Source: a virus
Reading direction: 5' to 3' (one strand)
Length of the DNA: 64,000 nucleotides
Virus record (IMG/VR): IMGVR_UViG_3300050190_000059
Coordinates: 1-64,000 of that record
Shown here: in pieces, positions 1 to 59,362 of the stretch
Position numbering within the stretch: position 1 is the first letter of the stretch
Layout of the letters: each line of letters begins with the position of its first letter
Made by a program: the position numbers and the translations under genes
Notes under the pieces: model-generated
The model's input: the letters and a program-made list of their open reading frames with translations, nothing else
The model's database searches: none
What the model was told of the DNA's origin: nothing

Positions 1-151
1 ATCACTTTGCAGGCAAACTGTGTGACAAGTGATATCACTTTGCAGGCAAACTGTGTGACAAGTGATATCACTTTGCAGGCAAACTGTGTGACAAGTGATA
101 TCACTTTGCAGGCAAACTGTGTGACAACCGATATCGCTTTGCACATCACAC
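1..151. repeat. 33-bp tandem direct repeat array (iterons). There are 4 full units and a degenerate fifth. Each unit junction forms the 14-bp palindrome AAGTGATATCACTT.
   Basis: Unit ATCACTTTGCAGGCAAACTGTGTGACAAGTGAT lies at 1-33, 34-66 and 67-99. Unit 100-132 has 2 changes. 133-151 is degenerate. The array touches the window edge and may continue upstream. Confidence 0.9.
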
Positions 152-206
152 TTATGCCCGAATGCGGCTCACGCGTTTCACGAGGATGAGCCGATAACTT
201 TTGTGC

Positions 207-1233: not shown

Positions 1234-1301
1234 TCGGTCTCGCCTTGTTCTACATAATCGTGATGGGCTGCATATTCGTGCCCCGACGACGCAAGGACTA
1301 G
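1221..1301 (+). CDS. small hydrophobic peptide (26 aa)
   Basis: MSIVIGLALFYIIVMGCIFVPRRRKD, one TM segment plus a basic tail. Not in the ORF track (<60 aa). Confidence 0.3.
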   Translation: MSIVIGLALFYIIVMGCIFVPRRRKD

Positions 1302-1343
1302 TACCAACGTACCATTGACTCTACCGTGCGGACATGAGAGGAT
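1301..1343 (+). promoter_or_regulatory. promoter with GTACC upstream repeats and extended -10
   Basis: GTACC at 1301 and 1309. TTGACT (1315-1320), 17 nt, GAGGAT (1338-1343), with TG at 1335-1336. Confidence 0.55.
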
Positions 1344-3342: not shown

Positions 3343-3506
3343 GTATAGGCTATGAAAAATGTGTGTGTCATTTCTGCGGCAAGAAGAACGCCGGACACGC
3401 GCGTGCAGAGGATTCGAAACCCGGTGGCCCGTACTTCGATGCGTGTGAGGCGTGCGCGAAGAAACCGTACCCTAGTACCGAAGTACCATTGACTACACAA
3501 CCGTAG
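3339..3506 (+). CDS. small Cys-rich protein (55 aa)
   Basis: ATGA coupling. CVCHFCGKK...CEACAKK. Frame checked codon by codon to TAG 3504-3506. Confidence 0.45.
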   Translation: MSIGYEKCVCHFCGKKNAGHARAEDSKPGGPYFDACEACAKKPYPSTEVPLTTQP

Positions 3507-5948: not shown

Positions 5949-6401
5949 ATGGCAACACAATTTAAAATCGGAGACAGGGTTCGCATTCCTGAATCATTAA
6001 ACGATTGCTGGGCAGGCGAGGGCGAGGTGTACAGCCTTTATAACGAGGGGAGTACTAGCGTCGGTGTCCTCATGACCAGCGGTAACAGGGCTGGGAAGAA
6101 AGGCGGCTTTGATAAGAATAAGGTTCAGCCGCTGCCCCTGTTCAATGTGTCCGTCGAAACGACTGGAATGCAGATCACTAAGATCAAACGTAGCAGCCAG
6201 AAGACCGGGCTGAAGGTGTACGGCGTAGTCCGCAGCACCTCCGGCAAGGATTACAACTTCGCGTATATCCGCCGTTCTAATTTTCGCGGCTGGATTTGTT
6301 CTTGCGAGAACTTTTTCTTCACGATGTTCAAAAAGAACCGGAACTGCAAGCACATCAAGTTCGTGCGTCAGGAAGTCGGACGTTACGCGAGCAAGGCCTA
6401 G
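5949..6401 (+). CDS. SWIM zinc-finger protein
   Basis: WICSCENFFFTMFKKNRNCKHIKF fits the CxCx(n)CxH SWIM signature. RBS AAGAGGAAAA. Confidence 0.7.
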   Translation: MATQFKIGDRVRIPESLNDCWAGEGEVYSLYNEGSTSVGVLMTSGNRAGKKGGFDKNKVQPLPLFNVSVETTGMQITKIKRSSQKTGLKVYGVVRSTSGKDYNFAYIRRSNFRGWICSCENFFFTMFKKNRNCKHIKFVRQEVGRYASKA

Positions 6402-6443
6402 TACCAACGTACCATTGACGAGAACTTGAATCGAGTGTAGTCT
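6401..6443 (+). promoter_or_regulatory. promoter with GTACC repeats
   Basis: GTACC at 6401 and 6409. TTGACG (6415-6420), 17 nt, TAGTCT (6438-6443). 6391-6420 is 28/30 identical to 1291-1320. Confidence 0.55.
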
Positions 6444-7826: not shown

Positions 7827-8515
7827 CCACACCAACAGAAATACAGAATATCGAAACCAAGGCTGGCGTTTGGATAACTGCGCACCACGCCGTGCTCTAC
7901 ATTCTTTTAGCTGTCGCACTCCTCGCTGGCGTTTATATCTTTGAATCCAAGTACGCGGACATCGCGACCGCGAAGGCAAACGCGGCAGAGCAGGCCTTGG
8001 CCGTCGAAAAGGACCACAGCACTCAACTGGCGAATCTTTATGCGGCCAATCAGGCGCAGCGCGACAAGGACAACGCGGCCTTCTTGCTATCTATTTCTCA
8101 AACACAGGCACAAACAAGGGTCCAGATCATTCACGACAAGGCGTTGCCCGCTCCGGATTTAGGGCACCGCATCGAGACGATAACAGGATTCAAGCAGGGT
8201 ACTATAACGCTCGATGCCTCTCAAGATTTAATCGTGCCGTTGCCGCTGGCCGTCGACATAGTCACCAGATTAGATCAGGGTATGGCGGACGCGCAAACAG
8301 TTGTGCAGCAAGCGGGCATAATTAAAAACCAAGCCGGGACAATCGCCGACCAGATCGCGATAATCGCAGAGGATAAGAAAGTTTTGACGGCGCAAATCGA
8401 CACCGACGACAGGGTATTGAAAGCAGAGAAGGCGAATGCACGCAAGGGCAAGTTGAAGTGGTTTGGTATCGGATTCGTTGCTGGATTTATTAGCCGGGAG
8501 GTTATCAAGCCATGA
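7823..8515 (+). CDS. membrane-anchored coiled-coil protein
   Basis: N-terminal TM (AVLYILLAVALLAGVYIF), a long A/Q-rich helical region and a C-terminal hydrophobic WFGIGFVAGFI. Confidence 0.65.
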   Translation: MTTPTEIQNIETKAGVWITAHHAVLYILLAVALLAGVYIFESKYADIATAKANAAEQALAVEKDHSTQLANLYAANQAQRDKDNAAFLLSISQTQAQTRVQIIHDKALPAPDLGHRIETITGFKQGTITLDASQDLIVPLPLAVDIVTRLDQGMADAQTVVQQAGIIKNQAGTIADQIAIIAEDKKVLTAQIDTDDRVLKAEKANARKGKLKWFGIGFVAGFISREVIKP

Positions 8516-10122
8516 ACGTATCAAAGGCAGAGCGCGTATCACCTGAACTCGTAGAAGCTGAGTACGAAGCGAACGGCGGCAACATCCGCGCGACGGCGGC
8601 AGCGTTAGGCATCGAGCGTTCGACAGTCCGCGCCAAGCTGGCCCTTCTAGGCAAGAAGGATAAACCGTTGGCCGCTGGCTCCGAAGAGGGAACGAAGACC
8701 GTCAAATTAAAGTTGCCAGCGAAAGGTAAGGTCTCGCGCTACATCCTGACGTCCGCGCAGAACAACACGTACGTTCACGAATCAGCGTGGGAGAATCTTC
8801 TATCACTCGCAGAACACTACGACGCCGATATCATTGTCGGCACCTTCACGTATAATCAGAACGCATACGGCAAGTTGAGTGTGAAGCGCGGCAAGGATAA
8901 GAGCGCGCAACAGACATTGTGGTATGACCCGAAGTTGACCGAATACATTCGCGACGAACGCGTCGAACTGGCGAACGGTTTGGTGTGGTGCGGCGAGATG
9001 AACATCCTGCCGACCGCCGTGAACCCGCTGGCCGGACTCGATAGTTACACGCAGCGTAAGAGCGCAATCTTCCCCCACGCGAAGTTGGCGGTGCGCAGCA
9101 TCGCAACGATGCAAGGCGAGGGCGTCAAACTGAATTACACCACGGGCACCGTTACCCAGCGCAACTACATTCAGAAACGCGAGGGCGTGATCGCCGAGTT
9201 TCATCATATCTACGGCGGCCTACTCGTCGAGGTTAACAGTGATGGTAATTGGTGGGTCCGTCAACTGAACCAAGACGGCGAGCAAGGCGCGATTCAGGAC
9301 CTAGGCGTCGTAGTGAAGGACGGCAAGGTTACCACTGGCAACCGCGTCGAGGCCATCACCTTCGGTGACCTGCACGGCACGTTCGCTGACCCGGTTGTCG
9401 TCAAGGCGTCGCTCGATATGCTCGACACGTTGCAGCCGAGGTATCAATTCCTTCATGATGTGATGGAAGGTGTCAGCATCAATCCCCACGTTCGCAAGCA
9501 CAACGATAACCACGCTAAGTTCTCCACATACCTGCGCGGGTACGGCACACTAAGCGCGGAACTGCGCGACACCGTTGCGCTGCTCGATTCATTCACGCGT
9601 AAGTTTTCCAGCACGGTCATCATCGACTCAAACCACGACGACGCGTGGATTCAAAAGTGGCTGCGTGAGTATGACTACCGGAAGGACCCGGCCAACGCAG
9701 AACTATTCTTGGATTTACAAGCTTTCATGTACATCGAACTCCGCAAAGGTAAGATGCCTCGCGACATCAGCGTAATCGAAGAGGCTATGAGTAAAATAGG
9801 TTATAAGAAGGCTAAGTTCCTCCGCGCTGATGAATCGTTCCTTATCTGTGGTCGCAAGATCGAATGCGGGATGCACGGGCACCTCGGGCCGGGTGGTCGC
9901 CGTGGTTCGCCTGAAAATCTCAGCAAAATGGGGAGACGAGCAAATACTTGCCACACGCACTCAACAGGAATTTTTAACGGTTTATATGTGGGTGGCACAA
10001 GCAGCAAGTTGCGCTGGGATTACGCGACCGGACCCAGTGCATGGACTAACACACACATCGTCACCTACCCGAACGGCAAGCGCACGCTGGTGACAATCTA
10101 CAACGGGAAGTGGAGCGCATAA
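8512..10122 (+). CDS. HTH + calcineurin-like metallophosphoesterase domain protein
   Basis: N-terminal HTH (GNIRATAAALGIERSTVRAKL). C-terminal half has FGDLHG, IIDSNHDD, GMHGHLG and CHTHS motifs. Confidence 0.65.
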   Translation: MNVSKAERVSPELVEAEYEANGGNIRATAAALGIERSTVRAKLALLGKKDKPLAAGSEEGTKTVKLKLPAKGKVSRYILTSAQNNTYVHESAWENLLSLAEHYDADIIVGTFTYNQNAYGKLSVKRGKDKSAQQTLWYDPKLTEYIRDERVELANGLVWCGEMNILPTAVNPLAGLDSYTQRKSAIFPHAKLAVRSIATMQGEGVKLNYTTGTVTQRNYIQKREGVIAEFHHIYGGLLVEVNSDGNWWVRQLNQDGEQGAIQDLGVVVKDGKVTTGNRVEAITFGDLHGTFADPVVVKASLDMLDTLQPRYQFLHDVMEGVSINPHVRKHNDNHAKFSTYLRGYGTLSAELRDTVALLDSFTRKFSSTVIIDSNHDDAWIQKWLREYDYRKDPANAELFLDLQAFMYIELRKGKMPRDISVIEEAMSKIGYKKAKFLRADESFLICGRKIECGMHGHLGPGGRRGSPENLSKMGRRANTCHTHSTGIFNGLYVGGTSSKLRWDYATGPSAWTNTHIVTYPNGKRTLVTIYNGKWSA

Positions 10123-10316
10123 TGATAAAAGGTAAACGCACAGTTGCACAAACTAAAAAGGCTTTCCAAAAAGCTATGGACCTTTTTTGGATTTATCATC
10201 CCAACGCAGACGACGAGAGATTTCAAACTTTCAGAAACAGATGGAATAAAAAATTTTTCCAAGCGAGTGATTTCACGAGCATCGGGGACTTGCTAAAAGT
10301 TGAAAATAACGCTTGA
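10122..10316 (+). CDS. hypothetical protein
   Basis: TAATG coupling. Internal ATG of ORF 10110..10316. Confidence 0.55.
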   Translation: MIKGKRTVAQTKKAFQKAMDLFWIYHPNADDERFQTFRNRWNKKFFQASDFTSIGDLLKVENNA

Positions 10317-10341
10317 CAACTCGGCAACGGCGTGGTAGTCT
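10313..10341 (+). promoter_or_regulatory. promoter, extended -10
   Basis: TTGACA (10313-10318), 17 nt, TGG TAGTCT (-10 at 10336-10341). Confidence 0.55.
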
Positions 10342-10363
10342 ATCTTACAGAGAGCGAGGAACC

Positions 10364-12271
10364 ATGAAAACGAAAACGCTACAACTGAAAGAGATCAAAC
10401 CGAACCCGTTCCGCGACTTCGAACAGAACCCGCTGGACGAGAAACAAATCGAAGGCCTAGTGGAGTCTATAGGGACCGTCGGGAAGAGGGGGATTTTGGA
10501 AGTTCGTCTTAACGATGATGATAAACCGGAGCTAGTGTCCGGCCATCATTTGTTGGAGGCTCTTAAGCGTGTTTACTCTGGCACCAAAGAACTAGATTTC
10601 GCTATCGTAGATTTTACAGACGGCAAAATGATTCAGTGGATGGCTCGCGAGAACCTGACACAGCGCGGCCCGTCCCCCGCCGAACTTTTTGAGGCGATCA
10701 AGGCAGCCGTTGCAGCGCACGGCTCCGGCAAGATCGGCAAGGACGAGATGCCCTTTCCCCCGGGTACCGACCCTAAGTTAGTTAGATTTGCTCCGAAATA
10801 TACAGCCGGGACTGCCGCAGTCCCGGTTGGAGATTCGCCAGAGGCCCGCGCAGCCCGTGCAGCATTTTCTAAAGAAATCGCCGAAAAGAACGAGCGTCAC
10901 GCATTCACTGTAGAAGCGTTGGCGAAATTTTTGGGTCTCGTAAAACAGGAGTCGCAACGTCCGAAGGACAGCTTCGTCGCCGCATTCGGCGCGCTCGAAC
11001 TCGTCTCGGAAGGGTACCTGACAGAAGCACGCACTAAGGGATTGGATGTTCGCAAACTTGGCGAGGTCGTAGCTGTTGTTAAAAAGCAGCGCGAAGCGGT
11101 TATTGCTGAATCGAAACGACTCGCAGCGGAGATCGAAGCGCGGAGACTGGAGGTTGTTCGTAAGGCCGAGGAATTGAAGAAACAGCAAGCCGAGGCAGAG
11201 GCTAAACGAGTGGCCGCTGTCGAAGCAGAGCGTCTCGCAGCGATCAAACGGGCAGAAGAGAAGGCCAAGCACGACGCGGAGGAGGCTGTCCGTCGCGCCG
11301 CAGAAGAGAAGCGCAAGAAAGCAGAGGCGGAACAACGCGCTATCGCCGAAGCCAAGCGTAAGGACGAAGAGGAGAAGTTACGCAAGGCCCGTGAAGCGCA
11401 GCGCGTCGAGGCAGAACGTCAGCGCATTGAGGCCGACCGGGTGCGGCAAATCGCGCTCGCTAAGGCTAAGAAGGAAGAGGACGAGGCCAAGGCAGAGAAG
11501 ATGCGCAAGGACGCGGAGGCCGCGAAGGTACGGGCTGAAGCAGAGGCCAAGCGAAAGGAAGAGGCCGCCCGACAGGCTGAGATCGCCGCCAAGAAACGGG
11601 AAGCAGACGAAAAGGAACGCCAAGCACAGGCCGCTAAGAAACGGGCCGAAGACGAGGCGCGTCAAGCCGCACAGCGCAAGGCGCAACAAGAGGCCGCTGC
11701 CCGTGAAGAGATAAAGCGAGTCGAGGAAGCGAGACGCAAGGCAGAGGTCGCCAAGCTGGCGGCAGCGGAGGCCGACCGTAAGAAGCAAGCGGAGATCGCC
11801 GCAGCCCAAGCCGAAGCCAAACGAAAAGATGCTGCTGCTAAGAAGGAAGAGGCCGAAAGAAAGGCCGACGCCAAAGAGGTGGCGGATAAGTTAGCGGAAG
11901 AGGCTAAACTAAAGACCACGAACCGAGATGATATCCGAGACATAGGCCGCCGCCGCGCGGAAGAAAAGGCGGCAGAGACGGGTCGTCGAGCACCGATACC
12001 CAATCCTGCGCCCCCGTCCGGAGTGGATGCGGATGAGTTTCGGAAATTTTTGGAGGATTTGAAGAAAGCGCACGCCGCTGGCACAACGGCCCGAGTTCTT
12101 CGCAATGTTCCAGAAGAGGTAGTTCAGATGGCGAAGCAGTGGGTAGAGTTCAGTTATCGAGAATTTGCAAAGAAGAAACATCCCGATCACGGGGGTACGC
12201 AGAGAGAAATGCAACTCATCAATGCGACCGCGTCGTGGTTGAGAGGCATAATAGAGGAGAAAAACAGATGA
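10364..12271 (+). CDS. ParB/Srx-like N-terminal domain + ~300-aa E/K/R/A-rich helix + C-terminal J-domain (HPD) fusion protein
   Basis: LKEIKPNPFRDFEQNPLDEKQIEGLVESIG...LVSGHHLLEAL (ParB-like). About residues 270-560 are uninterrupted AEAKRK-type charged sequence. C-terminal YREFAKKKHPDHGGTQREMQLINATASWLR is a J-domain helix II-HPD-helix III. Confidence 0.75.
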   Translation: MKTKTLQLKEIKPNPFRDFEQNPLDEKQIEGLVESIGTVGKRGILEVRLNDDDKPELVSGHHLLEALKRVYSGTKELDFAIVDFTDGKMIQWMARENLTQRGPSPAELFEAIKAAVAAHGSGKIGKDEMPFPPGTDPKLVRFAPKYTAGTAAVPVGDSPEARAARAAFSKEIAEKNERHAFTVEALAKFLGLVKQESQRPKDSFVAAFGALELVSEGYLTEARTKGLDVRKLGEVVAVVKKQREAVIAESKRLAAEIEARRLEVVRKAEELKKQQAEAEAKRVAAVEAERLAAIKRAEEKAKHDAEEAVRRAAEEKRKKAEAEQRAIAEAKRKDEEEKLRKAREAQRVEAERQRIEADRVRQIALAKAKKEEDEAKAEKMRKDAEAAKVRAEAEAKRKEEAARQAEIAAKKREADEKERQAQAAKKRAEDEARQAAQRKAQQEAAAREEIKRVEEARRKAEVAKLAAAEADRKKQAEIAAAQAEAKRKDAAAKKEEAERKADAKEVADKLAEEAKLKTTNRDDIRDIGRRRAEEKAAETGRRAPIPNPAPPSGVDADEFRKFLEDLKKAHAAGTTARVLRNVPEEVVQMAKQWVEFSYREFAKKKHPDHGGTQREMQLINATASWLRGIIEEKNR

Positions 12272-12888
12272 GCAAAAATATTCTTACGGTTCATAGTCCA
12301 GAAATCCGGCAATTCGCTCAAATTCTTTGTCCGGGCAAAACCTTGACAGCGTTCGACGTGAATCTCGCGCTGATGATTTATAAACTCAAAAGGGAGGTCG
12401 GTTCGGACCCGGGAGAGGGCACATTTACGTTTGTACAGATTGCCAAGCTACTCAACTCCAATTACCACGACGAGGGACCCAACACTAAGAAGGGACTCAA
12501 GAAGGACGTTAAGAAATACGCCGCCCGTCTAACTGATATGTCTGCAAACAGCAGGGGGCCATCAGCTATCGGGATAGTGATGTTTACTGATGAAACATAC
12601 AGCCTCTGGCGTCGGGGCGACGCGACCGTCGCGGAGGTGGTTAAAACTTACCGACCGGGATTGCCTTACACCCGGGTCGGGGTATTTGGAAACGTGAATG
12701 GTGAGTACATTCTGGGCTGGGTCGCCGTTCAACGACGCAAGGGACGGGGATTAGATAACCGGGGCATCGAGAGAGAACAAGGATTTGATGCTGCTGGTTT
12801 GCTCACCAGTGACACAAAGGAAGCTGTGGGTCGGCTTTTGGGGATTTCTGCCGCGCCGAAGTTACCCGAACTGTCCCCAGTGGATTAA
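12268..12888 (+). CDS. hypothetical protein
   Basis: ATGA coupling. 206 aa. Confidence 0.65.
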   Translation: MSKNILTVHSPEIRQFAQILCPGKTLTAFDVNLALMIYKLKREVGSDPGEGTFTFVQIAKLLNSNYHDEGPNTKKGLKKDVKKYAARLTDMSANSRGPSAIGIVMFTDETYSLWRRGDATVAEVVKTYRPGLPYTRVGVFGNVNGEYILGWVAVQRRKGRGLDNRGIEREQGFDAAGLLTSDTKEAVGRLLGISAAPKLPELSPVD

Positions 12889-12889
12889 T

Positions 12890-13165
12890 ATGGCCGAAAC
12901 CCACAATCTGAAACCTGACCCAGAAATGGTTAAGGCTCTCCCTATGATGCTCCAACTTCTCAATAACCCTTCGTTCGTCAAGCACGCGCGCGGCCAAGGG
13001 TATGAGTTCGACATACAATCCATCTGGAGGGCATACGTGAGCACACTAACGTATACGCCTACGCTACCCATTAAAACCACCGGGATACAGTCTGTCAAAC
13101 GAACTAAGCCGCGCTTGACAGCATCCGACTTCGTGATGCTTCGAGAAATGGGGATAAGATTATGA
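12890..13165 (+). CDS. hypothetical protein
   Basis: Internal ATG of ORF 12785..13165, immediately after the upstream stop. Confidence 0.6.
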   Translation: MAETHNLKPDPEMVKALPMMLQLLNNPSFVKHARGQGYEFDIQSIWRAYVSTLTYTPTLPIKTTGIQSVKRTKPRLTASDFVMLREMGIRL

Positions 13166-17686: not shown

Positions 17687-19722
17687 ATTTTCTTGAGAAA
17701 GCCACACCGACCGCAGTTAAAGGAGTTGCGGTAATTCGTTTGCGTCCGAATGCTAAAGCGGCCATAGATGTCGGCTGGCCCCAGCTTGCGACTACAGATA
17801 TTGAAACTTTGAAAAAGTGGAACGAAGAGACACCGGACGCAAACTGCGGAGCCGTTGCTACCCCGGGTGGCGTGTGGTATTGGGAAGTCGATTCGCCTGA
17901 TGTAATTCCTCGCCTACAAAAAGAAACCGGGCAACAGGTACCAGAGACCTTTAAGGTCAGATCAAGAAAAGGTCGCGGCCACTTTTACTGGAAGTCGACC
18001 GAAGCCAGCCGCGCAATGGGGAACCTATCTCAGAGCTATGTCATAGGTCAGGATTGGTCTGCTCGTGTAAACAACGCTTACGTCGTGGCACAAAACTCTC
18101 TCCACCCAGACACTGGACTCCCATATACAGCTTTAAATCCCGATGCAGAAATCGTTGAAGCACCGGATTGGCTAGTGCAGTGGCTGGTATCCCAAAAGAT
18201 TCAGAAGATAACCCCCCAAGGCGCGGATGCGACCCCGCGCGATTTCAATAATAAAGTGCCCCACGGTTCGATACATGGTTTTCTTCTCTCCACAGCGGGC
18301 CGTCTCAGAGCCGCAGGTTTAACCCAAGACGAGATTGAGGTGGCTCTCGTTCGTATCGCAGAAGAACAGTGCGCCCCACCTGTCGATTTTTCGAAAGTGC
18401 GGACGATGGCGAAGTCGATTTGCAACTTCCCTCCGGGCCAGCAGGGCCACAGCATCGCGCTGTCGCAGCCGCCGCAGTCAGCGGCGACCGAGGTAGCAGA
18501 GGATGCGCCGGAGTTCGTGACCATCGAGTATCCGCTGTTCCCACGCCACGTGATGTTTGGCACCAGCATTTACGATGGATTCATCAAACCATATTGCGAA
18601 AACAGTTCACGCATCGATTACTTCATGTTTATACCGACCGCTGCGCTGATGATGAACTACCTTGGCACCAAGGTCACCGTTCCGTTCTCTTCGTGGAAGC
18701 CAAGTTTTTATATTGTGCTGATTGGTAAGAAGGCGCGCACGCACAAGACATCGTCTATCAAGGACGCGATGAAGTTTTTGGAGTATGGCAGTAGCTTGGC
18801 AATGTATTCGAAGAATGTCAAGAACGCTGATGGAAAATCTTTAGTGTGGCAGGTAGGTTCGCCGGAAGGTCTCGGCACCGATATGATGCGCACCAACTGC
18901 AAGAACGCGGTTCTCTCTTACGGCGAGCTATCTACGCTGGTAGGAAAGGCCCGCATCGAGGGCAGCAGCATGAAGAGCGCGCTGCTGGATTTGTACGAGT
19001 CAGACAACTTCTCCAACTCGATTAAGACCAAGAAGGACACGTTCAGCATCGACCCGGGCAGCTACGTGACGACGCTCATTACGGCCACGACCGACAAAAA
19101 GTTCACTGAACTGTGGTCACAACTTGCCGGAGAAGACAGCGGATTAAACGACCGCTTCACGTGGGTATTGGAGCCTCAGACGTTGCCAGAGAAGAAATTG
19201 GAGAACACGGTAAACTATAACGAGGCCGCGCTGGCGACCCGCCGCATCATGGACAACGCCGTCCAGAAGGGCAAGTATGAGTTCTTCGATAAGACCCCGT
19301 TGCAGCGCATCTTATTAGTGTACGGCCCTCGCCAAGTGGCCCGCGCGGAGAAATGGGCGTTGTACTTCGCGATTGATTTGCAGCTTGACGAGATCGATGA
19401 GGACTGTGTAGCACGCGGCATCGAGATGGTGAAGTACGAAGAGGCCGTCAAGGATTACTTGCTGACTTTCGAAGCGAAAAACGATGAGTCGGCGATTCAG
19501 CAGGGTGTGGTGCGCCTGCTTAAGAAGAACGGCGGATTGATGGAGAAGCGCGACATCGTGCGCGCGCTGAACGCGAACAAGTACGGCGGCACCATCTGGG
19601 ACCGTTCTTACAACTGGCTCGTGAACTCCGGCCACATAGTTCAGTACGGTAAGGGCATTAAAGGCGACCCGTGCATGGTCAAGCTGTTGCGCGACATGTC
19701 TTTTGGAAGGGACGACGATTAA
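17683..19722 (+). CDS. bifunctional primase-polymerase (Prim-Pol) / helicase-like replication protein
   Basis: N-terminus has LRPNAKAAIDVGW, GRGHFYW and AYVVAQNSLHPDTGLPY (prim-pol motifs). The centre has LIGKKARTHKTS (Walker A-like, DUF3987-type). Confidence 0.75.
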   Translation: MNFLEKATPTAVKGVAVIRLRPNAKAAIDVGWPQLATTDIETLKKWNEETPDANCGAVATPGGVWYWEVDSPDVIPRLQKETGQQVPETFKVRSRKGRGHFYWKSTEASRAMGNLSQSYVIGQDWSARVNNAYVVAQNSLHPDTGLPYTALNPDAEIVEAPDWLVQWLVSQKIQKITPQGADATPRDFNNKVPHGSIHGFLLSTAGRLRAAGLTQDEIEVALVRIAEEQCAPPVDFSKVRTMAKSICNFPPGQQGHSIALSQPPQSAATEVAEDAPEFVTIEYPLFPRHVMFGTSIYDGFIKPYCENSSRIDYFMFIPTAALMMNYLGTKVTVPFSSWKPSFYIVLIGKKARTHKTSSIKDAMKFLEYGSSLAMYSKNVKNADGKSLVWQVGSPEGLGTDMMRTNCKNAVLSYGELSTLVGKARIEGSSMKSALLDLYESDNFSNSIKTKKDTFSIDPGSYVTTLITATTDKKFTELWSQLAGEDSGLNDRFTWVLEPQTLPEKKLENTVNYNEAALATRRIMDNAVQKGKYEFFDKTPLQRILLVYGPRQVARAEKWALYFAIDLQLDEIDEDCVARGIEMVKYEEAVKDYLLTFEAKNDESAIQQGVVRLLKKNGGLMEKRDIVRALNANKYGGTIWDRSYNWLVNSGHIVQYGKGIKGDPCMVKLLRDMSFGRDDD

Positions 19723-20915
19723 TGGTAGAAGTGCATATCGACTTCGAATCACGCAACCCCCTCGTTGGACCAAGCGACGTAGGATTGCACAACTACATCT
19801 TCTCCCCGGAGACGGAGCCGTTATTCCTTTGGTACAAGATAGGCGAGGGCGAATATAAGCGTGTGTCCTTTTATCTTGGCGAGATCATTGAACAGTCATC
19901 AGAACTTCATATGGCGTTGATGAATCCGAATGTGGCGTTCGTTGCGTTCAATAGCGCGTTCGAGCGTTACATGTTCCAGAAGCTAAACTACATCATCCCG
20001 GCCAGTCGTTTCATCGACCCGCAGGTCGGCGGTCGGTATCTGTCGCTCCCGGCCAGCTTGGAAGTGCAAGGCAAGGTGCTGGGACTGCCGCCGAGTTTGG
20101 CGAAGCAAGAGGGCGACCTTGTACAGTTCTTTTGCAAACACCAGATCGTAAAGGCCACCAAGAAGCGCGAGGGCCGCGCGTACTACAACGATTGGAACTC
20201 TCACCCGAAAGAGTGGGCCGAGTTCCTCGAATACGGTAGACAGGACGTGGTCGCAGAGGGCGAGCTACTCCGTCGCATGCGAATACTGGGCGCGCTGCCG
20301 CTGCCGGAATTCGAACAACAGGTGTGGATTCTCGACCAGAAGATTAATGATCGCGGGATGCCCGTGGACGTCGAGTTCGTTCGCAAGATGTACAACCTTG
20401 GTCTCCGCGCGAAGGCTGAAGCTAAGAAGAACTTTGAAGATTTTACAGGCGTGAAGAACGCCAACTCACCAGCGCAGGTCAAAGCGTGGGCGAAGCCACA
20501 AGGCTACCCGTTCGACACCTTGAAGAAAGACACCGTCGCCTCGGTGCTTAAGGACCCCGAAATAAAACTCACTGATGCGTGCCGCGCTGCGCTAAAGATG
20601 CGCGCAGAGGCCGCCAGCACTAGCTACCAGAAACTCGGGAAGATTCTCGAATGCGTTTCATCAGATGGGAGAGTTCATGGTCAATTCATCTTTATGGGTT
20701 CAAGCCGTTGCGGTCGTTGGTCTGGGAACGCAGTCCAGCTTCATAACTTTGCTCGTCCGACGCTCGTGGGTGGGTATGATTTTGAAGATCAAAAAGTTGT
20801 TAAAGAAGCCAGAGAGTTCATTTATCGAGAAGATTACGACGGCATAAAACAGAAGTATGGGTCAGTCCTATTAGTAGTGAAATCTCTCATTCGAACAGTC
20901 TTTGTCGCGCCATGA
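19722..20915 (+). CDS. family A DNA polymerase, N-terminal fragment (3'-5' exo domain + N-terminal part of the pol domain)
   Basis: HIDFESRN (Exo I), FVAFNSAFERYMF (Exo II), YGRQDVVAE (Exo III), GSSRCGRWSGNAVQLHNFARP. The ORF stops just before motif A. Confidence 0.8.
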   Translation: MVEVHIDFESRNPLVGPSDVGLHNYIFSPETEPLFLWYKIGEGEYKRVSFYLGEIIEQSSELHMALMNPNVAFVAFNSAFERYMFQKLNYIIPASRFIDPQVGGRYLSLPASLEVQGKVLGLPPSLAKQEGDLVQFFCKHQIVKATKKREGRAYYNDWNSHPKEWAEFLEYGRQDVVAEGELLRRMRILGALPLPEFEQQVWILDQKINDRGMPVDVEFVRKMYNLGLRAKAEAKKNFEDFTGVKNANSPAQVKAWAKPQGYPFDTLKKDTVASVLKDPEIKLTDACRAALKMRAEAASTSYQKLGKILECVSSDGRVHGQFIFMGSSRCGRWSGNAVQLHNFARPTLVGGYDFEDQKVVKEAREFIYREDYDGIKQKYGSVLLVVKSLIRTVFVAP

Positions 20916-21334
20916 AAAATAAATCCTGCAAACACGGCAAACAGAAGGGACACTGTCGCAAATGTAACCCTAAGAAGTTTTGTGCGCACGAAGTTCATCG
21001 CAGCCATTGCCGTGTTTGCAGTCCTCGTGGTTGGGCATCTGGTATTCTATCAGTTGCAAGGGGCGCTGCTCATCGTCGCAATTATGCAGCACCACAAATA
21101 ACTCCAGAGGATTTAGTTCGTTTGATGTCAAAAAGTGATGAGTGCGTGATGTGCGGGAGTGGACTAGTTTGGACTAAACCAAGACCGCATCTTCATCACG
21201 ACCATAAGACAGGTGAAGTAAAAGGTTTTAGTCATCCTAATTGTAATTTCGCAGAGGGTATGCTGTCAAAGATGTCCGACGTGGAAAGAAAAACATTTAT
21301 TCGAGAAGTATTTCCCGAGGTTTTGGCACAATGA
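20912..21334 (+). CDS. free-standing HNH/Endo VII-like homing endonuclease inserted in the polymerase gene
   Basis: CVMCGSGL...HLHHDHKTGEVKGFSHPNCN. ATGA overlaps at both ends. Paralog of 46430..46870. Confidence 0.8.
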   Translation: MKNKSCKHGKQKGHCRKCNPKKFCAHEVHRSHCRVCSPRGWASGILSVARGAAHRRNYAAPQITPEDLVRLMSKSDECVMCGSGLVWTKPRPHLHHDHKTGEVKGFSHPNCNFAEGMLSKMSDVERKTFIREVFPEVLAQ

Positions 21335-22425
21335 GTACTCGCTTCAACGTATGTGACCTCAATGCTATAGAAACGCGGGTAGGTGCTTGGTTAGCAAATT
21401 GTACAGACCTTATGAGCGTGTTCGTGCCGTACACCGACGTGTTTGGTGTTTACCAGCGCAACGGTCGCGACCCGTACCTCGCGTTCGCGTGTAAGATGTT
21501 TGGTCTGACGTACGATGTCCTTTACGCCGACTATAAGGGTAGAAACGGCAAAGAGCGCAAGGCTGCCGCGAAGCGTATGCGACAAGTCGCGAAGCCGGGA
21601 GTGCTGGGAGCCATCTACCGTCTCGCTGGCGGCATACTTATACGCATCCACACAGATGAGTGCAAGCTGGCGCAATCGAAGGGAGAGATAAAGGCCGACG
21701 AATGCGGCTGCCCCAAGGGTAAGACGGGTCTCTGGGACTACGCGGATAAGATGGGCGTCGAGATGTCCCAGAAACAATCGCACGAGGTGGTGGACATCTT
21801 CCGCAACTCGTACCCAGAAATATGTGACCCGAAGGTTGGAATTTGGAAGCAGTTGGAACTCGCGGTCGCCGACGTGATGCACCCGAACCACCCGGCCACG
21901 GTTCGTTATATCGGCCCGGGCAACTGTGTGAAGATCGACCGCATCAACTTCATTGACCCAGTGACGGGTGAGCAAGAGCGTCACCCAATGATGAGGATGC
22001 AATTACCGAGTGGCCGTTACCTGCACTATTTAGACGCGCGTCTCGAATCAACGATGATGCCGTGGAAGGGACAAGACGACGATGGAAACGAAATTGACGT
22101 TTACCGTGACAGCCTCATTTACGCCGGAACAAATCAGAAGACTAAGCAGTGGGATATCTGGATTTCCACCCACGGCGGGAAACTCTTTGAAAATCTCGTC
22201 CAAGGAATCGCAAGAGATATTCTGGCCTACTGTCTTCTCCAATTTGAAGAGCAAGAAATGCCCGTGGTGGGCCACGTTCACGACGAGGGCCTTACGTTGG
22301 TTGAAGACGATATTCTCTCGCCTACGTACCACGACATGGTCGAGATAATGAGTACGCCCATTAACTGGGCACCGGGTCTGTTGCTGGGCGCGGATGGATA
22401 TGAGGAGACGTACTACCACAAATGA
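21331..22425 (+). CDS. family A DNA polymerase, C-terminal fragment (motifs A, B, C)
   Basis: CDLNAIETRVGAWLA (motif A), RQVAKPGVLGAIYRLAGG (motif B), VGHVHDEGL (motif C). Confidence 0.8.
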   Translation: MSTRFNVCDLNAIETRVGAWLANCTDLMSVFVPYTDVFGVYQRNGRDPYLAFACKMFGLTYDVLYADYKGRNGKERKAAAKRMRQVAKPGVLGAIYRLAGGILIRIHTDECKLAQSKGEIKADECGCPKGKTGLWDYADKMGVEMSQKQSHEVVDIFRNSYPEICDPKVGIWKQLELAVADVMHPNHPATVRYIGPGNCVKIDRINFIDPVTGEQERHPMMRMQLPSGRYLHYLDARLESTMMPWKGQDDDGNEIDVYRDSLIYAGTNQKTKQWDIWISTHGGKLFENLVQGIARDILAYCLLQFEEQEMPVVGHVHDEGLTLVEDDILSPTYHDMVEIMSTPINWAPGLLLGADGYEETYYHK

Positions 22426-42368: not shown

Positions 42369-42575
42369 ATGAACGGCATAAACGAAAAGAATCACCGCGA
42401 TAAAAAGAACGAGACCAGCGCAGAGAACTTCCGCAAGGAAAAGAGAGCGCGCAACGACGCGCGCGGCAAACAGAAGTGGGTCCCAAGTTCGTTCACGGGA
42501 ACCTTAGAAGAACTCGATAAGTTATCTGACGCAAAGGTACGGGCAATTGTCCCGGCGCACTGGGAGAGATCATGA
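42369..42575 (+). CDS. small basic protein upstream of RtcB (candidate leaderless)
   Basis: 68-aa ORF rich in K/R/N/E. The ATG lies 6 nt after the -10. ATGA-coupled to rtcB. Confidence 0.55.
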   Translation: MNGINEKNHRDKKNETSAENFRKEKRARNDARGKQKWVPSSFTGTLEELDKLSDAKVRAIVPAHWERS

Positions 42576-43903
42576 GTTTACCAAACAAGAAAATGATTCA
42601 GAAGAATTACAACGTGCTCGCGACCGTGGGCGCGCCAATCAAAATGTGGAACAAGCACGTCAAGATCGAAGACAAGGCCATCGAGCAACTACATCAGGTC
42701 GCCGCGATGCCCTTCGTGAAGCCGTGGGTTGCCGCTATGCCAGACACCCACTGGGGCATGGGCGCGACCGTTGGCTCTGTCATCCCTGCGGTGGGCGCTG
42801 TGATGCCTGCGGCGGTCGGAGTGGACATCGGGTGCGGCATGATGGCTGTGCGCACCAACTTAAAGTTTCGAGAGAAAAGTCTTCACGACCAGCGCGACCC
42901 AATGCAGTTCTACTTCGAGGAAATCTCCGCAGCGGTTCCGCACGGTCGCACTAACGACGGCGGAAACGGTGACCGTGGCGCGTGGGGTGAAGTGCCAGAA
43001 GACATTCAGAAGGCTTGGGGACGAGAGTTTACGTCGTACATTTACGGTGAGAACAGAGGTTTATTTGATAGACATCCCGGCGCGTTGTCGAAGAACGCGG
43101 AGAAGCAACTCGGCACACTCGGAACCGGAAACCACTTCATCGAGGTGTGCACCGAGATCGACAATCCCGACTCGAATCTCTGGGTCGTAATTCACTCGGG
43201 TTCACGTGGCTTCGGCAACCGCATCGGTACGTACTTCACGAAGCTAGCAGGCGACCTATGTAAGAAGTGGGGCGTTCAACTTCCGAATCGCGATCTCGGC
43301 TACCTTCCGGTAGGAACTCCTGAATACGACGACTACATGTCTGCCGTGAGGCTGGCGCAGAAGTTCGCTTGGGTCAACCGTGTGGTCATGATGAACCGCG
43401 TGTTGACTGCAATCGGCGCGGAGTCAGACACGGATTGGACACACCACACTGATGTGGAGCCGAATCTCGTCGTTCACAATCCAGTGCCGTCTTTGATTCA
43501 CGTGCACCACAACTACATGACTCAGATTCGTTTCCAGAATCTCGACATCAACCTGACCCGCAAGGGCGCGGTGGACGCGAGCGAGGGCAACTGGGTCATC
43601 ATCCCCGGCTCGATGGGCGCGAAAACGTACATCGGGAAGGGACTCGGGAACAGGGACTCGTTTTTCTCTTGCTCTCACGGCGCGGGCCGCGCGATGAGCC
43701 GAACCCAGGCTCTTAAGATTTTCTCAGTGGAAGACCACACCAAAGCAACGGATGGTGTCTACTGCGATAAAACGACCGCTGTGCTCGACGAAACCCCCGG
43801 GGCTTATAAAGATATTGACCAAGTTATGGAGAGCCAAAGGGACCTTGTTGAGCCTGTGCTCAAGATTCGGCAACTCGTTTGTGTAAAAGGTTTGAGTGAC
43901 TAA
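42572..43903 (+). CDS. rtcB: RtcB 3'-phosphate/5'-hydroxyl RNA ligase
   Basis: MPDTHWGMGATVGS, GVDIGCGM, GTGNHFIE, HSGSRGFG, HHNY, IPGSMGAKTY, CSHGAGR. Confidence 0.9.
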   Translation: MSLPNKKMIQKNYNVLATVGAPIKMWNKHVKIEDKAIEQLHQVAAMPFVKPWVAAMPDTHWGMGATVGSVIPAVGAVMPAAVGVDIGCGMMAVRTNLKFREKSLHDQRDPMQFYFEEISAAVPHGRTNDGGNGDRGAWGEVPEDIQKAWGREFTSYIYGENRGLFDRHPGALSKNAEKQLGTLGTGNHFIEVCTEIDNPDSNLWVVIHSGSRGFGNRIGTYFTKLAGDLCKKWGVQLPNRDLGYLPVGTPEYDDYMSAVRLAQKFAWVNRVVMMNRVLTAIGAESDTDWTHHTDVEPNLVVHNPVPSLIHVHHNYMTQIRFQNLDINLTRKGAVDASEGNWVIIPGSMGAKTYIGKGLGNRDSFFSCSHGAGRAMSRTQALKIFSVEDHTKATDGVYCDKTTAVLDETPGAYKDIDQVMESQRDLVEPVLKIRQLVCVKGLSD

Positions 43904-59353: not shown

Positions 59354-59362
59354 GTTTTCCTC

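What the first reader, a model, noticed from the sequence alone, without database searches (positions are those of the whole stretch)
10364..12271. ParB-like domain, ~300-residue charged single-helix spacer and J-domain in one protein
Seen:
- The N-terminus has the ParB/sulfiredoxin-fold signature (KPNPFR...QIEGLVESI...VSGHHLLEAL). The usual GxxR arginine is replaced (GHHL).
- About 290 residues consist of almost only A/E/K/R (AEAKRK, EEARRKAE and similar). That composition is typical of stable single alpha-helices or very long coiled coils. It corresponds to about 11130-11910 and also produces four spurious antisense ORFs.
- The last ~55 residues are a J-domain core, with the invariant HPD in KKKHPDHGG (12177-12196).

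Established: J-domains recruit and activate Hsp70/DnaK. ParB-family proteins bind palindromic DNA sites.

Inference: this could be a DNA-anchored tether that delivers host DnaK to the phage genome, origin or partition complex. That would be functionally analogous to lambda P/DnaJ-DnaK remodelling or to viral T-antigen J-domains. I do not recognise this domain combination as described.
Basis: partly seen in the sequence, partly recalled or inferred. Interest (0 to 1): 0.65.

Follow-up and report, generated by a model that had tools for sequence, protein, structure and literature searches.

The report
Phage ParB–long helix–J-domain co-chaperone
A phage accessory gene encodes a ParB-type DNA-binding module joined by a roughly 40-nm charged single helix to a divergent J-domain (the element that switches on the host chaperone DnaK), and it always travels with one unknown partner gene, a combination I could not find described.

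Summary
Window 10364-12271 (+) is one intact 635-aa gene with three parts.

- **Residues 1-240:** a ParB N-domain plus a ParB-type helical domain. The AF2 model has pLDDT 88.5. Foldseek matches Noc/ParB/KorB at probability 1.0, and the family profile hits Spo0J at 3e-10. The box-II arginine is lost (GHHL).
- **Residues 241-519:** a Pro/Gly-free A/E/K/R helix with an ER/K single-helix signature (i+4 salt-bridge z = 6.7, no heptad periodicity).
- **C-terminus:** a divergent J-domain. An exhaustive search found 41 relatives, all with invariant HPD. Their profile hits T-antigen, Sis1 and DnaJ J-domains (best 4.5e-6), and 34 of 41 hit Pfam DnaJ. No member I scanned reaches Pfam's cut-off for either domain.

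New findings:
- The architecture recurs in rare metagenomic phage proteins, with spacers of about 0, 123 or 294-332 residues.
- A translationally coupled ~200-aa partner gene is conserved beside it in five lineages.
- The gene has its own early-type promoter.
- The cassette sits in an insertion hotspot and is absent from all 62 related phage loci.
- No ParA is present.

I read it as an accessory, probably DNA-tethered class-C J-protein that directs host DnaK. An origin or partition role is unlikely. It is a new variant of a known kind.

The parts
10313..10341 (+). Sigma-70-type promoter: TTGACA (10313-10318), 17-nt spacer, TG at 10333-10334, TAGTCT (10336-10341)
   Evidence: The -10 hexamer and spacing are the same as in the repeated early-promoter element at 6415. 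The generic scan did not list it, because TAGTCT matches only 3 of 6 positions of TATAAT.
10364..12271 (+). ParB-helix-J gene, 635 aa (RBS GAGG at 10356-10359; stop TGA at 12269-12271)
   Evidence: The identical protein is found in independent assemblies.
10364..10717 (+). ParB N-terminal (ParB/Srx, 'CTPase-fold') domain, residues 1-118. Box II is GHHL (residues 60-63); box III is RENLTQR.
10718..11083 (+). Basic helical middle domain, residues 119-240 (pI 9.2). It superposes on the HTH DNA-binding domain of ParB/Noc/KorB. It carries a ~21-aa insertion not seen in relatives.
11084..11920 (+). ER/K-type charged helix, residues 241-519 (the Pro/Gly-free stretch is 234-527). As a straight helix it would be about 42 nm long.
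11921..11938 (+). Conserved NRDDIR motif directly after the spacer (residues 520-525)
   Evidence: NRDDIR, TRKDIR, NRDDIN or SRDEIK is present in six family members.
11984..12028 (+). Pro-rich flexible linker RRAPIPNPAPPSGVD (residues 541-555)
   Evidence: pLDDT below 50 at the start of the C-terminal model
12095..12268 (+). Divergent J-domain core, residues 578-635. Helix II is 584-605, HPD is 606-608 (nt 12179-12187), and helix III is 613-634.
12268..12888 (+). Partner gene, 206 aa, function unknown, pI 9.5. Its ATG overlaps the upstream stop codon (ATGA); RBS GAGGAG at 12255-12260.
   Evidence: Homologues lie directly downstream of ParB-J genes in L065, L067/L068, L069 and L071/L072.
10122..10316 (+). 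64-aa ORF inside the variable cassette. It is not conserved next to other family members.

Best explanation
This is an accessory, early-expressed, two-gene phage cassette. Its large product is a class-C (type III) J-domain co-chaperone with a ParB-type targeting module.

Proposed mechanism:
1. The N-terminal ParB N-domain plus HTH-like domain anchors the protein on DNA or a nucleoprotein complex. This step is inferred from fold only.
2. A rigid ER/K single alpha-helix of about 280 residues (about 42 nm), followed by a short Pro-rich hinge, holds the C-terminal J-domain away from the anchor.
3. The invariant HPD loop triggers ATP hydrolysis in host DnaK, so that DnaK clamps onto clients within that radius. 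This step is inferred from homology.
4. The translationally coupled ~200-aa partner is either the client or cofactor that DnaK acts on, or the effector that is delivered.

The cassette has its own host-type promoter and sits in a hotspot that carries DNA-hypermodification genes in a sister phage. I therefore think it serves host takeover or the phage-host conflict, not core replication or partition.
For: ParB fold plus second domain: profile hit to Spo0J at 3.3e-10; AF2 pLDDT 88.5; Foldseek probability 1.0 to Noc, ParB, pNOB8 ParB-N and KorB over 240-265 aligned columns; matches to phage ParB-like proteins.

J-domain: 41 homologues carry the domain at the extreme C-terminus with HPD invariant. 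The profile's top PDB hits are J-domains: polyomavirus T antigen at 4.5e-6, then Sis1, SV40 large and small T, DNAJC5, Tim14, DnaJ and CbpA. 34 of 41 members hit Pfam DnaJ, best 9e-7. In the AF2 model HPD sits exactly between two long helices.

Single-helix signature.

Recurrent architecture with variable spacer.

Conserved, overlapping partner.

Own promoter.

Accessory status and hotspot.

Precedent: phage RB43 Rki is an early-expressed J-protein that acts through host DnaK (PMC3486835).
Against: No biochemical step has been shown.
- On its own the protein is below the Pfam cut-offs (DnaJ 13.4 bits vs 27.8; ParB_N 13.5 bits vs 26.3).
- The family profile also hits histone H2B through an HPD-containing motif at E of about 3e-4, so part of the signal comes from a short motif.
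- The single-sequence AF2 model of the C-terminus (pLDDT 69) gave no significant structural match.
- Helix IV of a canonical J-domain seems to be absent.
- The box-II arginine needed for nucleotide binding in ParB is lost (GHHL), and no dimerisation domain or binding site was identified, so DNA anchoring is uncertain.
- The long spacers are more conserved (65-68% identity) than the ParB module (49-51%), which is unexpected for a passive ruler.
- The host is unknown.
Confidence: 0.5

Rival explanations
1. DnaK hijacking or sequestration, as with Rki. The J-domain's role is to divert or titrate host DnaK globally, for example to stabilise sigma-32 and raise chaperone levels, or to blunt DnaJ/DnaK-dependent host functions or defence sensing. 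In this reading the ParB-helix part is only a scaffold or localisation device, and no local client is remodelled on DNA.
For: Rki of phage RB43 is an early J-protein that works this way (PMC3486835). A bacterial defence protein senses phage through DnaJ (PMC12169576). The cassette is accessory, has an early-type promoter, and lies in a host-conflict hotspot. The same J-subfamily is fused to many unrelated N-termini.
Against: It does not explain why a two-domain ParB module and a partner gene are conserved with the J-domain across five lineages. It also does not explain why the long spacer is so well conserved.
Confidence: 0.2
2. A core replication-origin or partition factor. ParB binds phage iterons or a parS-like site and brings DnaK to remodel an initiator or partition complex.
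For: The ParB fold. 33-bp iterons exist at window 1-165. There are precedents for DnaK acting at lambda and P1 origins (established knowledge).
Against: The gene is absent from a ~90% identical sister phage and from 62 related loci. There is no ParA-type Walker A protein in the 64 kb and no ParA-binding motif. There is no C-terminal dimerisation domain. The box-II arginine is lost. No exact iteron match was found in the viral collection, so the link could not be tested.
Confidence: 0.1
3. The C-terminal domain is not a working J-domain. The HPD-containing helix hairpin has another role, for example binding the partner. The protein would then be an orphan phage ParB-like DNA-binding or nucleotide-switch protein with a structural helix, as is proposed for many phage ParB-fold fusions in anti-defence.
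For: Pfam scores are sub-threshold for every family member that I scanned individually. The profile cross-hits histone H2B. The structural search was uninformative. Helix IV is missing.
Against: HPD is invariant in 42 of 42 sequences, together with the J-typical Y-R-x-L-A-x-K-x-HPD-x-G-G pattern and helix-III positions. J-domains dominate the profile's PDB hits, with alignments that span helices II-III. 34 of 41 members hit Pfam DnaJ and no other family recurs.
Confidence: 0.12
4. An assembly or frameshift artefact that joins two genes across a repetitive spacer.
For: Low-complexity coding DNA is prone to such errors.
Against: There is no tandem DNA repeat. The identical protein occurs in six independent contigs. 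Homologues have the same architecture. The spacer is conserved position by position.
Confidence: 0.01

Closest known systems
Rki (ORF 057w) of T4-like phage RB43, the only characterised phage J-domain protein I found (PMC3486835)
   Same: It is phage-encoded, transcribed early from a TTGACA-type promoter, has a J-domain with HPD that acts through host DnaK, has a poorly conserved helix IV, and is an accessory ORFan-like gene.
   Different: Rki's J-domain is N-terminal and its remainder is unique. It has no ParB module, no long helix and no described partner gene. tblastn of our protein against GenBank phages, the collection where T4-like phage genomes would be held (I did not check that RB43 is in it), gave no match.
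Polyomavirus large T antigen (J-domain plus origin-binding domain plus helicase)
   Same: It is a viral protein that combines a DNA-binding module with a J-domain that recruits the host Hsp70. Its J-domain (1faf) is the best PDB hit of our family profile, sharing the HPD-K-G-G-S...M-Q-x-L-N pattern.
   Different: It is a eukaryotic virus protein. The J-domain is N-terminal, the DNA-binding fold is different, a helicase is present, and there is no single-helix spacer. It is essential for replication, whereas our gene is accessory.
Orphan and fused phage ParB-CTPase-fold proteins (survey in PMC12704722)
   Same: They share the ParB N-domain fold, occur on mobile elements without ParA, are fused to lineage-specific domains, and are proposed to act in phage-host conflict.
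   Different: No DnaJ or J-domain fusion is reported in that survey's text or held supplements. Our family is below the Pfam cut-offs, so a Pfam-based survey would not detect it. In this protein the box-II arginine is lost.
ER/K single alpha-helix (SAH) spacers, for example in myosin VI/X and caldesmon (from established knowledge)
   Same: They have the same composition, the same i/i+4 Glu-Lys/Arg pattern and no hydrophobic seam. They act as rigid spacers that set the effective concentration between the domains they connect.
   Different: At about 280-330 residues this one is unusually long, sits in a phage protein, and is more conserved in sequence than the flanking globular domain.
Tim14/Pam18-type membrane-tethered J-proteins and bacterial DjlA (class-C J-proteins)
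   Same: They have a short C-terminal J-domain with HPD-x-G-G-S, whose job is to localise Hsp70 activity to one site. Tim14 is among the profile hits.
   Different: Their anchor is a membrane segment, not a DNA-binding ParB module.

Membership tests
J-domain proteins (Hsp40/DnaJ co-chaperones, Pfam PF00226) | Invariant His-Pro-Asp in the loop between helices II and III | tested here: met
   HPD is at residues 606-608. It is invariant in 42 of 42 family sequences. In the AF2 model it lies between helix 584-605 and helix 613-634.
J-domain proteins (Hsp40/DnaJ co-chaperones, Pfam PF00226) | Profile-level sequence similarity across helices II-III to known J-domains | tested here: met
   Profile of family alignment A1 against the PDB: T antigen 4.5e-6, Sis1 about 1e-4, then DNAJC5, Tim14, DnaJ and CbpA. 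34 of 41 members hit Pfam DnaJ, best 9e-7. Caveat: histone H2B also scores at about 3e-4.
J-domain proteins (Hsp40/DnaJ co-chaperones, Pfam PF00226) | This protein itself passes Pfam's gathering score for DnaJ | tested here: not met
   13.4 bits against a cut-off of 27.8, E = 0.084. There was no hit when the whole protein or the 118-aa C-terminus was scanned. The relatives scanned individually are also sub-threshold.
J-domain proteins (Hsp40/DnaJ co-chaperones, Pfam PF00226) | Four-helix J-fold (helices I-IV) | tested here: inconclusive
   The single-sequence AF2 model has pLDDT 69. Foldseek gave no hit with E below 2. The protein ends 11 residues after the conserved WLR, so helix IV is probably missing.
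J-domain proteins (Hsp40/DnaJ co-chaperones, Pfam PF00226) | HPD-dependent stimulation of Hsp70/DnaK ATPase | not testable with these tools
   This needs biochemistry or genetic complementation.
ParB/Srx superfamily (ParB N-terminal 'CTPase' fold) | ParB N-domain fold | tested here: met
   Profile against the PDB: Spo0J 3.3e-10, Noc 3e-9. AF2 pLDDT 88.5. Foldseek probability 1.0 to Noc, ParB, KorB and sulfiredoxin.
ParB/Srx superfamily (ParB N-terminal 'CTPase' fold) | Box II GxxR arginine (nucleotide phosphate binding) | tested here: not met
   GHHL aligns with GERR of Spo0J. Most relatives have GHHR, while P0028 and P0036 have GHHT.
ParB/Srx superfamily (ParB N-terminal 'CTPase' fold) | Box III ENLxR motif | tested here: met
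   RENLTQR is present. E96 is invariant and N97 nearly invariant in the family alignment. The motif aligns with VENLQRE of Spo0J.
Canonical partition ParB (ParABS) | HTH DNA-binding domain after the N-domain | tested here: inconclusive
   Foldseek alignments to two-domain ParB, Noc and KorB cover 240-265 columns, but with low TM-scores (0.3-0.5) because the domain orientation differs. The domain is basic, pI 9.2. DNA binding itself was not tested.
Canonical partition ParB (ParABS) | N-terminal ParA-binding motif and a neighbouring ParA | tested here: not met
   The protein has no (L/F/I)G(K/R)G(L/F/I) motif, and no deviant Walker A ORF occurs in the 64 kb.
Canonical partition ParB (ParABS) | C-terminal dimerisation domain | tested here: not met
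   The C-terminal half is the charged helix plus the J-domain.
ER/K single alpha-helix (SAH) domains | E/K/R-rich composition with i to i+3 and i+4 opposite charges and no hydrophobic heptad | tested here: met
   87% A/E/K/R/Q/D; z = 5.7 (i+3) and 6.7 (i+4) against shuffles; depletion at i+1, i+6 and i+7; no 3.5-residue hydrophobic periodicity; no Pro or Gly over 294 residues.
ER/K single alpha-helix (SAH) domains | Monomeric, stable helix in solution | not testable with these tools
   This needs CD, AUC or SAXS. The first ~60 residues (241-300) have more hydrophobic residues and could pair.
Rki-like phage J-proteins | N-terminal J-domain with the Rki-specific C-terminal region | tested here: not met
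   Here the J-domain is C-terminal. tblastn against 50,697 GenBank phage records gave no match.

The most novel reading that the evidence does not exclude
The ParB-type module loads onto DNA, possibly the incoming phage genome of this T5-like, A1-encoding phage. It uses a conserved ~40-nm single helix as a molecular ruler to place DnaK activity at a defined distance along or around the DNA. DnaK would then strip or remodel DNA-bound host proteins (nucleoid or defence complexes), or activate the co-encoded partner on DNA. This would be a DNA-tethered Hsp70-recruitment system, a mechanism not known in bacteria or phages.
Probability: 0.12. Interest if true: 0.85.

Novelty: new variant of a known kind. 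Interest (0 to 1): 0.58.

Why it matters
Only one phage J-domain protein (Rki) turned up as characterised in my literature search, and how phages redirect the host Hsp70 system is largely unexplored. This family joins three well-understood modules in a way that makes a clear, testable prediction: DnaK activity is directed to a ParB-bound site, at a distance set by a rigid helix.

The family also supplies natural length variants (spacers of about 0, 123 and 300 residues) and a conserved candidate client or cofactor. It adds a fusion class to the ParB-fold repertoire that Pfam-based surveys cannot detect, because both domains score below threshold. It also flags a J-domain subfamily of mobile elements that is fused to several different N-terminal modules.

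Tried and rejected
- Full-length Pfam and PHROG scans found nothing. I rescanned the parts separately.
- megablast and tblastn against GenBank phages found no match.
- The word-indexed homologue search with the C-terminus found nothing. Only the exhaustive representative search found the family.
- phmmer of the C-terminus against the PDB gave no J-domain hit. The family profile was needed.
- Foldseek with the single-sequence C-terminal model was uninformative.
- Searching the 62 A1-linked relatives for any of the three families found nothing. This turned into the evidence that the cassette is accessory.
- Direct scans of the viral, genome and metagenome collections for the protein or the family found either nothing or only truncated ParB-like fragments without a J-domain.
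- The close fragments P0001 and P0002 are truncated remnants in bacterial-looking contigs and say nothing about architecture.
- The exact-match iteron search in viral contigs returned nothing, so the iteron-ParB link could not be tested.
- The partner protein has no Pfam, PHROG, NCBIfam, PADLOC or PDB hit and no further homologues.
- The idea that other N-termini of the J-subfamily are HTH modules could not be confirmed against the PDB.
- I rejected the coiled-coil reading (no heptad signal) and the frameshift artefact.
Full report
**What is there**

The region holds one long ORF, 10313-12271 on the + strand. The real start is ATG 10364, preceded by GAGG at 10356-10359. The 'TTG' at 10313 is the -35 hexamer of a sigma-70-type promoter: TTGACA, 17 nt, then TG-n-TAGTCT at 10336-10341. 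The same -10 hexamer and spacing occur in a repeated early-promoter element at 6415. Independent gene callers also give 635 aa. The identical protein is found on four Logan contigs and two JGI contigs of up to 105 kb. There is no DNA tandem repeat in the gene. A frameshift or assembly artefact is therefore excluded.

The window is a large lytic-type phage genome. It encodes a T5 A1-like 'DNA transfer protein' (8512-10122), a dNMP kinase, a primase-helicase, a split DNA polymerase and RtcB. It has no relative among GenBank phages.

**N-terminal module (residues 1-240)**

Alone, the protein gives only weak ParB signals:
- Pfam ParB_N E = 0.079, though the match runs end to end on the profile.
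- PHROG ParB-like 1.3e-3.
- PDB Spo0J 0.017.

A 12-sequence family alignment (A2) gives much stronger hits: Spo0J 3.3e-10, Noc 3e-9, and further ParB, serine kinase and sulfiredoxin matches. An AF2 model built on that alignment is confident (pLDDT 88.5, pTM 0.84). It matches Noc, ParB, pNOB8 ParB-N and KorB at probability 1.0 over 240-265 columns, which covers both the N-domain and the following helical DNA-binding domain. It also matches many phage ParB-like proteins.

Box III (RENLTQR) is conserved. Box II is GHHL, where ParB has GERR and most relatives have GHHR. The middle domain is basic, with pI 9.2. There is no ParA-binding motif, no ParB C-terminal dimerisation domain, and no ParA-type Walker A ORF anywhere in the 64 kb.

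**Spacer (residues 241-519)**

The spacer is 28% Ala, 20% Glu, 16% Lys and 13% Arg. There is no Pro or Gly from residue 234 to 527. Opposite-charge pairs are strongly enriched at i+3 and i+4 (z = 5.7 and 6.7) and depleted at i+1, i+6 and i+7. There is no 3.5-residue hydrophobic periodicity. This is the signature of an ER/K single alpha-helix rather than a coiled coil. At 0.15 nm per residue it would span about 42 nm. The purine-rich codons explain the several spurious antisense ORFs.

**C-terminal domain**

Plain searches failed. An exhaustive phmmer search of 1.84 billion representatives with the last 93 residues found 41 other proteins. In every case the domain sits at the extreme C-terminus. 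HPD is invariant in all 42 sequences, inside the consensus G-Y-R-x-L-A-k-k-x-HPD-x-G-G-s-x-e-x-M-Q-x-L-N-a-A-x-x-W-L-R.

A profile of this alignment hits J-domains in the PDB:
- murine polyomavirus T antigen at 4.5e-6;
- Sis1 at about 1e-4;
- SV40 large and small T, DNAJC5, Tim14, DnaJ and CbpA.

The alignments span helices II-III. 34 of 41 members hit Pfam DnaJ individually, with a best E of 9e-7, and no other family recurs.

Four caveats apply:
- This protein scores only 13.4 bits against a Pfam cut-off of 27.8.
- The ten relatives I scanned as whole proteins are also sub-threshold for both DnaJ and ParB_N.
- The profile also picks up histone H2B through an HPD-containing motif.
- The single-sequence AF2 model (pLDDT 69) places HPD between two long helices but gave no significant Foldseek match.

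Helix IV appears to be absent. I rate 'functional J-domain' at about 0.8.

**The family and its partner**

The whole architecture recurs. P0028 (653 aa), P0013 (588 aa), P0012 (458 aa) and P0007 (435 aa) have the ParB module, a charged helix and the HPD domain. P0010, P0036, P0008, P0011 and P0014 have the ParB module and the HPD domain with no long helix.

Pro/Gly-free helix lengths fall into three classes:

| Class | Members | Length (residues) |
|---|---|---|
| Long | this protein, P0013, P0028 | 294, 297, 332 |
| Medium | P0007, P0012 | 123, 124 |
| None | short-linker members | 42 or fewer |

The long spacers are homologous position by position. They are 65-68% identical over about 261 residues, with z = 31-41 against composition-matched shuffles. 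That is more conserved than the ParB module, at 49-51%. This is unexpected for a passive linker. A conserved NRDDIR motif follows the spacer.

Immediately downstream, overlapping by ATGA, lies a 206-aa gene at 12268-12888. Homologues of it occupy the same position next to ParB-J genes in four other phage contigs. The pairwise comparison with L065 gives E = 9e-14. The partner profile scores 1e-29 and 7e-27 on the partners of the short-linker members in L069 and L071. No other neighbour is conserved. The partner has no detectable relatives or domains.

**Accessory status**

Using the A1-like neighbour as a handle, I retrieved 62 related phage loci. The closest, L003, is about 90% identical in DNA on both sides. 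In L003, window 10122-12923 is replaced by about 2.5 kb of unrelated genes, among them a TET-associated glycosyltransferase (Pfam TAGT, 2.4e-44). Where the dNMP-kinase homologue can be located, the gap after the A1-like gene ranges from 12 nt to about 3 kb. None of the 62 loci contains a member of the ParB-J, J or partner families. The cassette is therefore cargo in an insertion hotspot that elsewhere carries anti-restriction functions. It is not a core gene.

**Interpretation**

*Shown here:*
- a single gene with a ParB-fold two-domain module, an ER/K-type helix and a J-like domain with invariant HPD;
- a recurring architecture;
- a conserved, coupled partner gene;
- its own promoter;
- accessory status.

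*Inferred:*
- DNA anchoring, from fold and charge;
- DnaK activation, from homology and HPD invariance;
- the ruler function of the helix.

The best reading is a phage class-C J-protein that localises host DnaK action to a ParB-bound site, with the partner as client or cofactor, used in host takeover or phage-host conflict (confidence 0.5). The rivals are:
- global DnaK hijacking of the Rki type (0.2);
- an origin or partition role (0.1);
- a non-functional J-like domain (0.12);
- an artefact (0.01).

**Comparison with what is known, and novelty**

Three kinds of precedent exist: Rki of RB43 (PMC3486835), polyomavirus T antigens, and the many ParB-fold fusions surveyed in PMC12704722. I found no description of a ParB plus J-domain fusion in full-text searches, or in that survey's text and held supplements. 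Its Pfam-based method would miss this family.

I class the finding as a new variant of a known kind. The family is rare: about ten ParB-J proteins among 1.84 billion representatives. All are metagenomic and the host is unknown.

Noticed in passing
window 1-165: An array of at least four 33-bp direct repeats (ATCACTTTGCAGGCAAACTGTGTGACAAGTGAT), each with 7-bp inverted ends (ATCACTT...AAGTGAT). The array starts at the very beginning of the window and decays in a fifth copy. It could be an iteron, terminal-repeat or injection-stop-like element of this A1-encoding phage. There is no exact match in IMG/VR.
   Followed up: partly
window 1291-1319, 1561-1589, 3465-3493, 6391-6419: A conserved 29-nt element (…CTAGTACCAACGTACCATTGAC) that ends in a -35-like TTGAC, with a -10-like hexamer 17-19 nt downstream in three of the four copies (none found downstream of the 1291 copy). 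It is probably a family of early promoters with an upstream element.
   Followed up: partly
window 10122-12923 compared with L003 9611-12175: There is an insertion hotspot between the A1-like gene and the dNMP-kinase block. The gap ranges from 12 nt to about 3 kb among relatives. The sister phage L003 carries a TET-associated glycosyltransferase (TAGT) and three unknown ORFs there, which points to DNA hypermodification in that lineage.
   Followed up: partly
P0023, P0025-P0027, P0034, P0037, P0039, P0041-P0043, P0045, P0046: A second recurrent architecture for this J-subfamily: small proteins of about 100-180 aa with an N-terminal MPFGK(Y/H)(R/K)G…(Y)LxWL motif followed by the HPD domain. From memory the motif resembles DUF3820 / the ExoX C-terminal region; I did not test this.
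   Followed up: no
P0016, P0021, P0022, P0024, P0029, P0030: Other members of the J-subfamily have N-termini that look like helix-turn-helix DNA-binding modules (for example …GIPRRTAYWWIDKYE, …LSRKTAERYISAYKEV). This hints at a general 'DNA binder plus C-terminal J-domain' theme on mobile elements. PDB sequence searches did not confirm it.
   Followed up: partly
P0044 (342 aa): This protein has three HPD-containing J-like repeats in one polypeptide (…KKFHPDHGG…, …KIYHPDCGG…, …RKHHPDHGG…).
   Followed up: no
L001 6254-6682, L002 194-1048, L073, L075-L080: Truncated copies of the family-specific ParB/middle domain, without a J-domain, lie in contigs that look bacterial. They have TonB, PEP-CTERM and CarboxypepD_reg neighbours, and one is in a Gemmatimonadetes MAG. 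They may be decayed prophage remnants and could hint at soil Acidobacteria or Gemmatimonadetes-like hosts.
   Followed up: partly
window 19671-20915, 20912-21334, 21331-22425: The DNA polymerase is split into two ORFs, with a 140-aa ORF between them. That ORF could be a homing endonuclease or other mobile insertion.
   Followed up: no
window 42572-43903: An RtcB-type RNA ligase (PHROG 1.7e-126) is present, although ARAGORN finds no tRNA gene in the 64-kb window. This may be a counter-measure against host anticodon nucleases.
   Followed up: no
window 51188-61774 (- strand): Three very large minus-strand ORFs of 863, 1857 and 803 aa. The 863- and 803-aa ORFs have no PHROG match; the 1857-aa ORF was not scanned. 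The 1857-aa ORF contains a 57-nt imperfect tandem duplication at 59112-59228.
   Followed up: no
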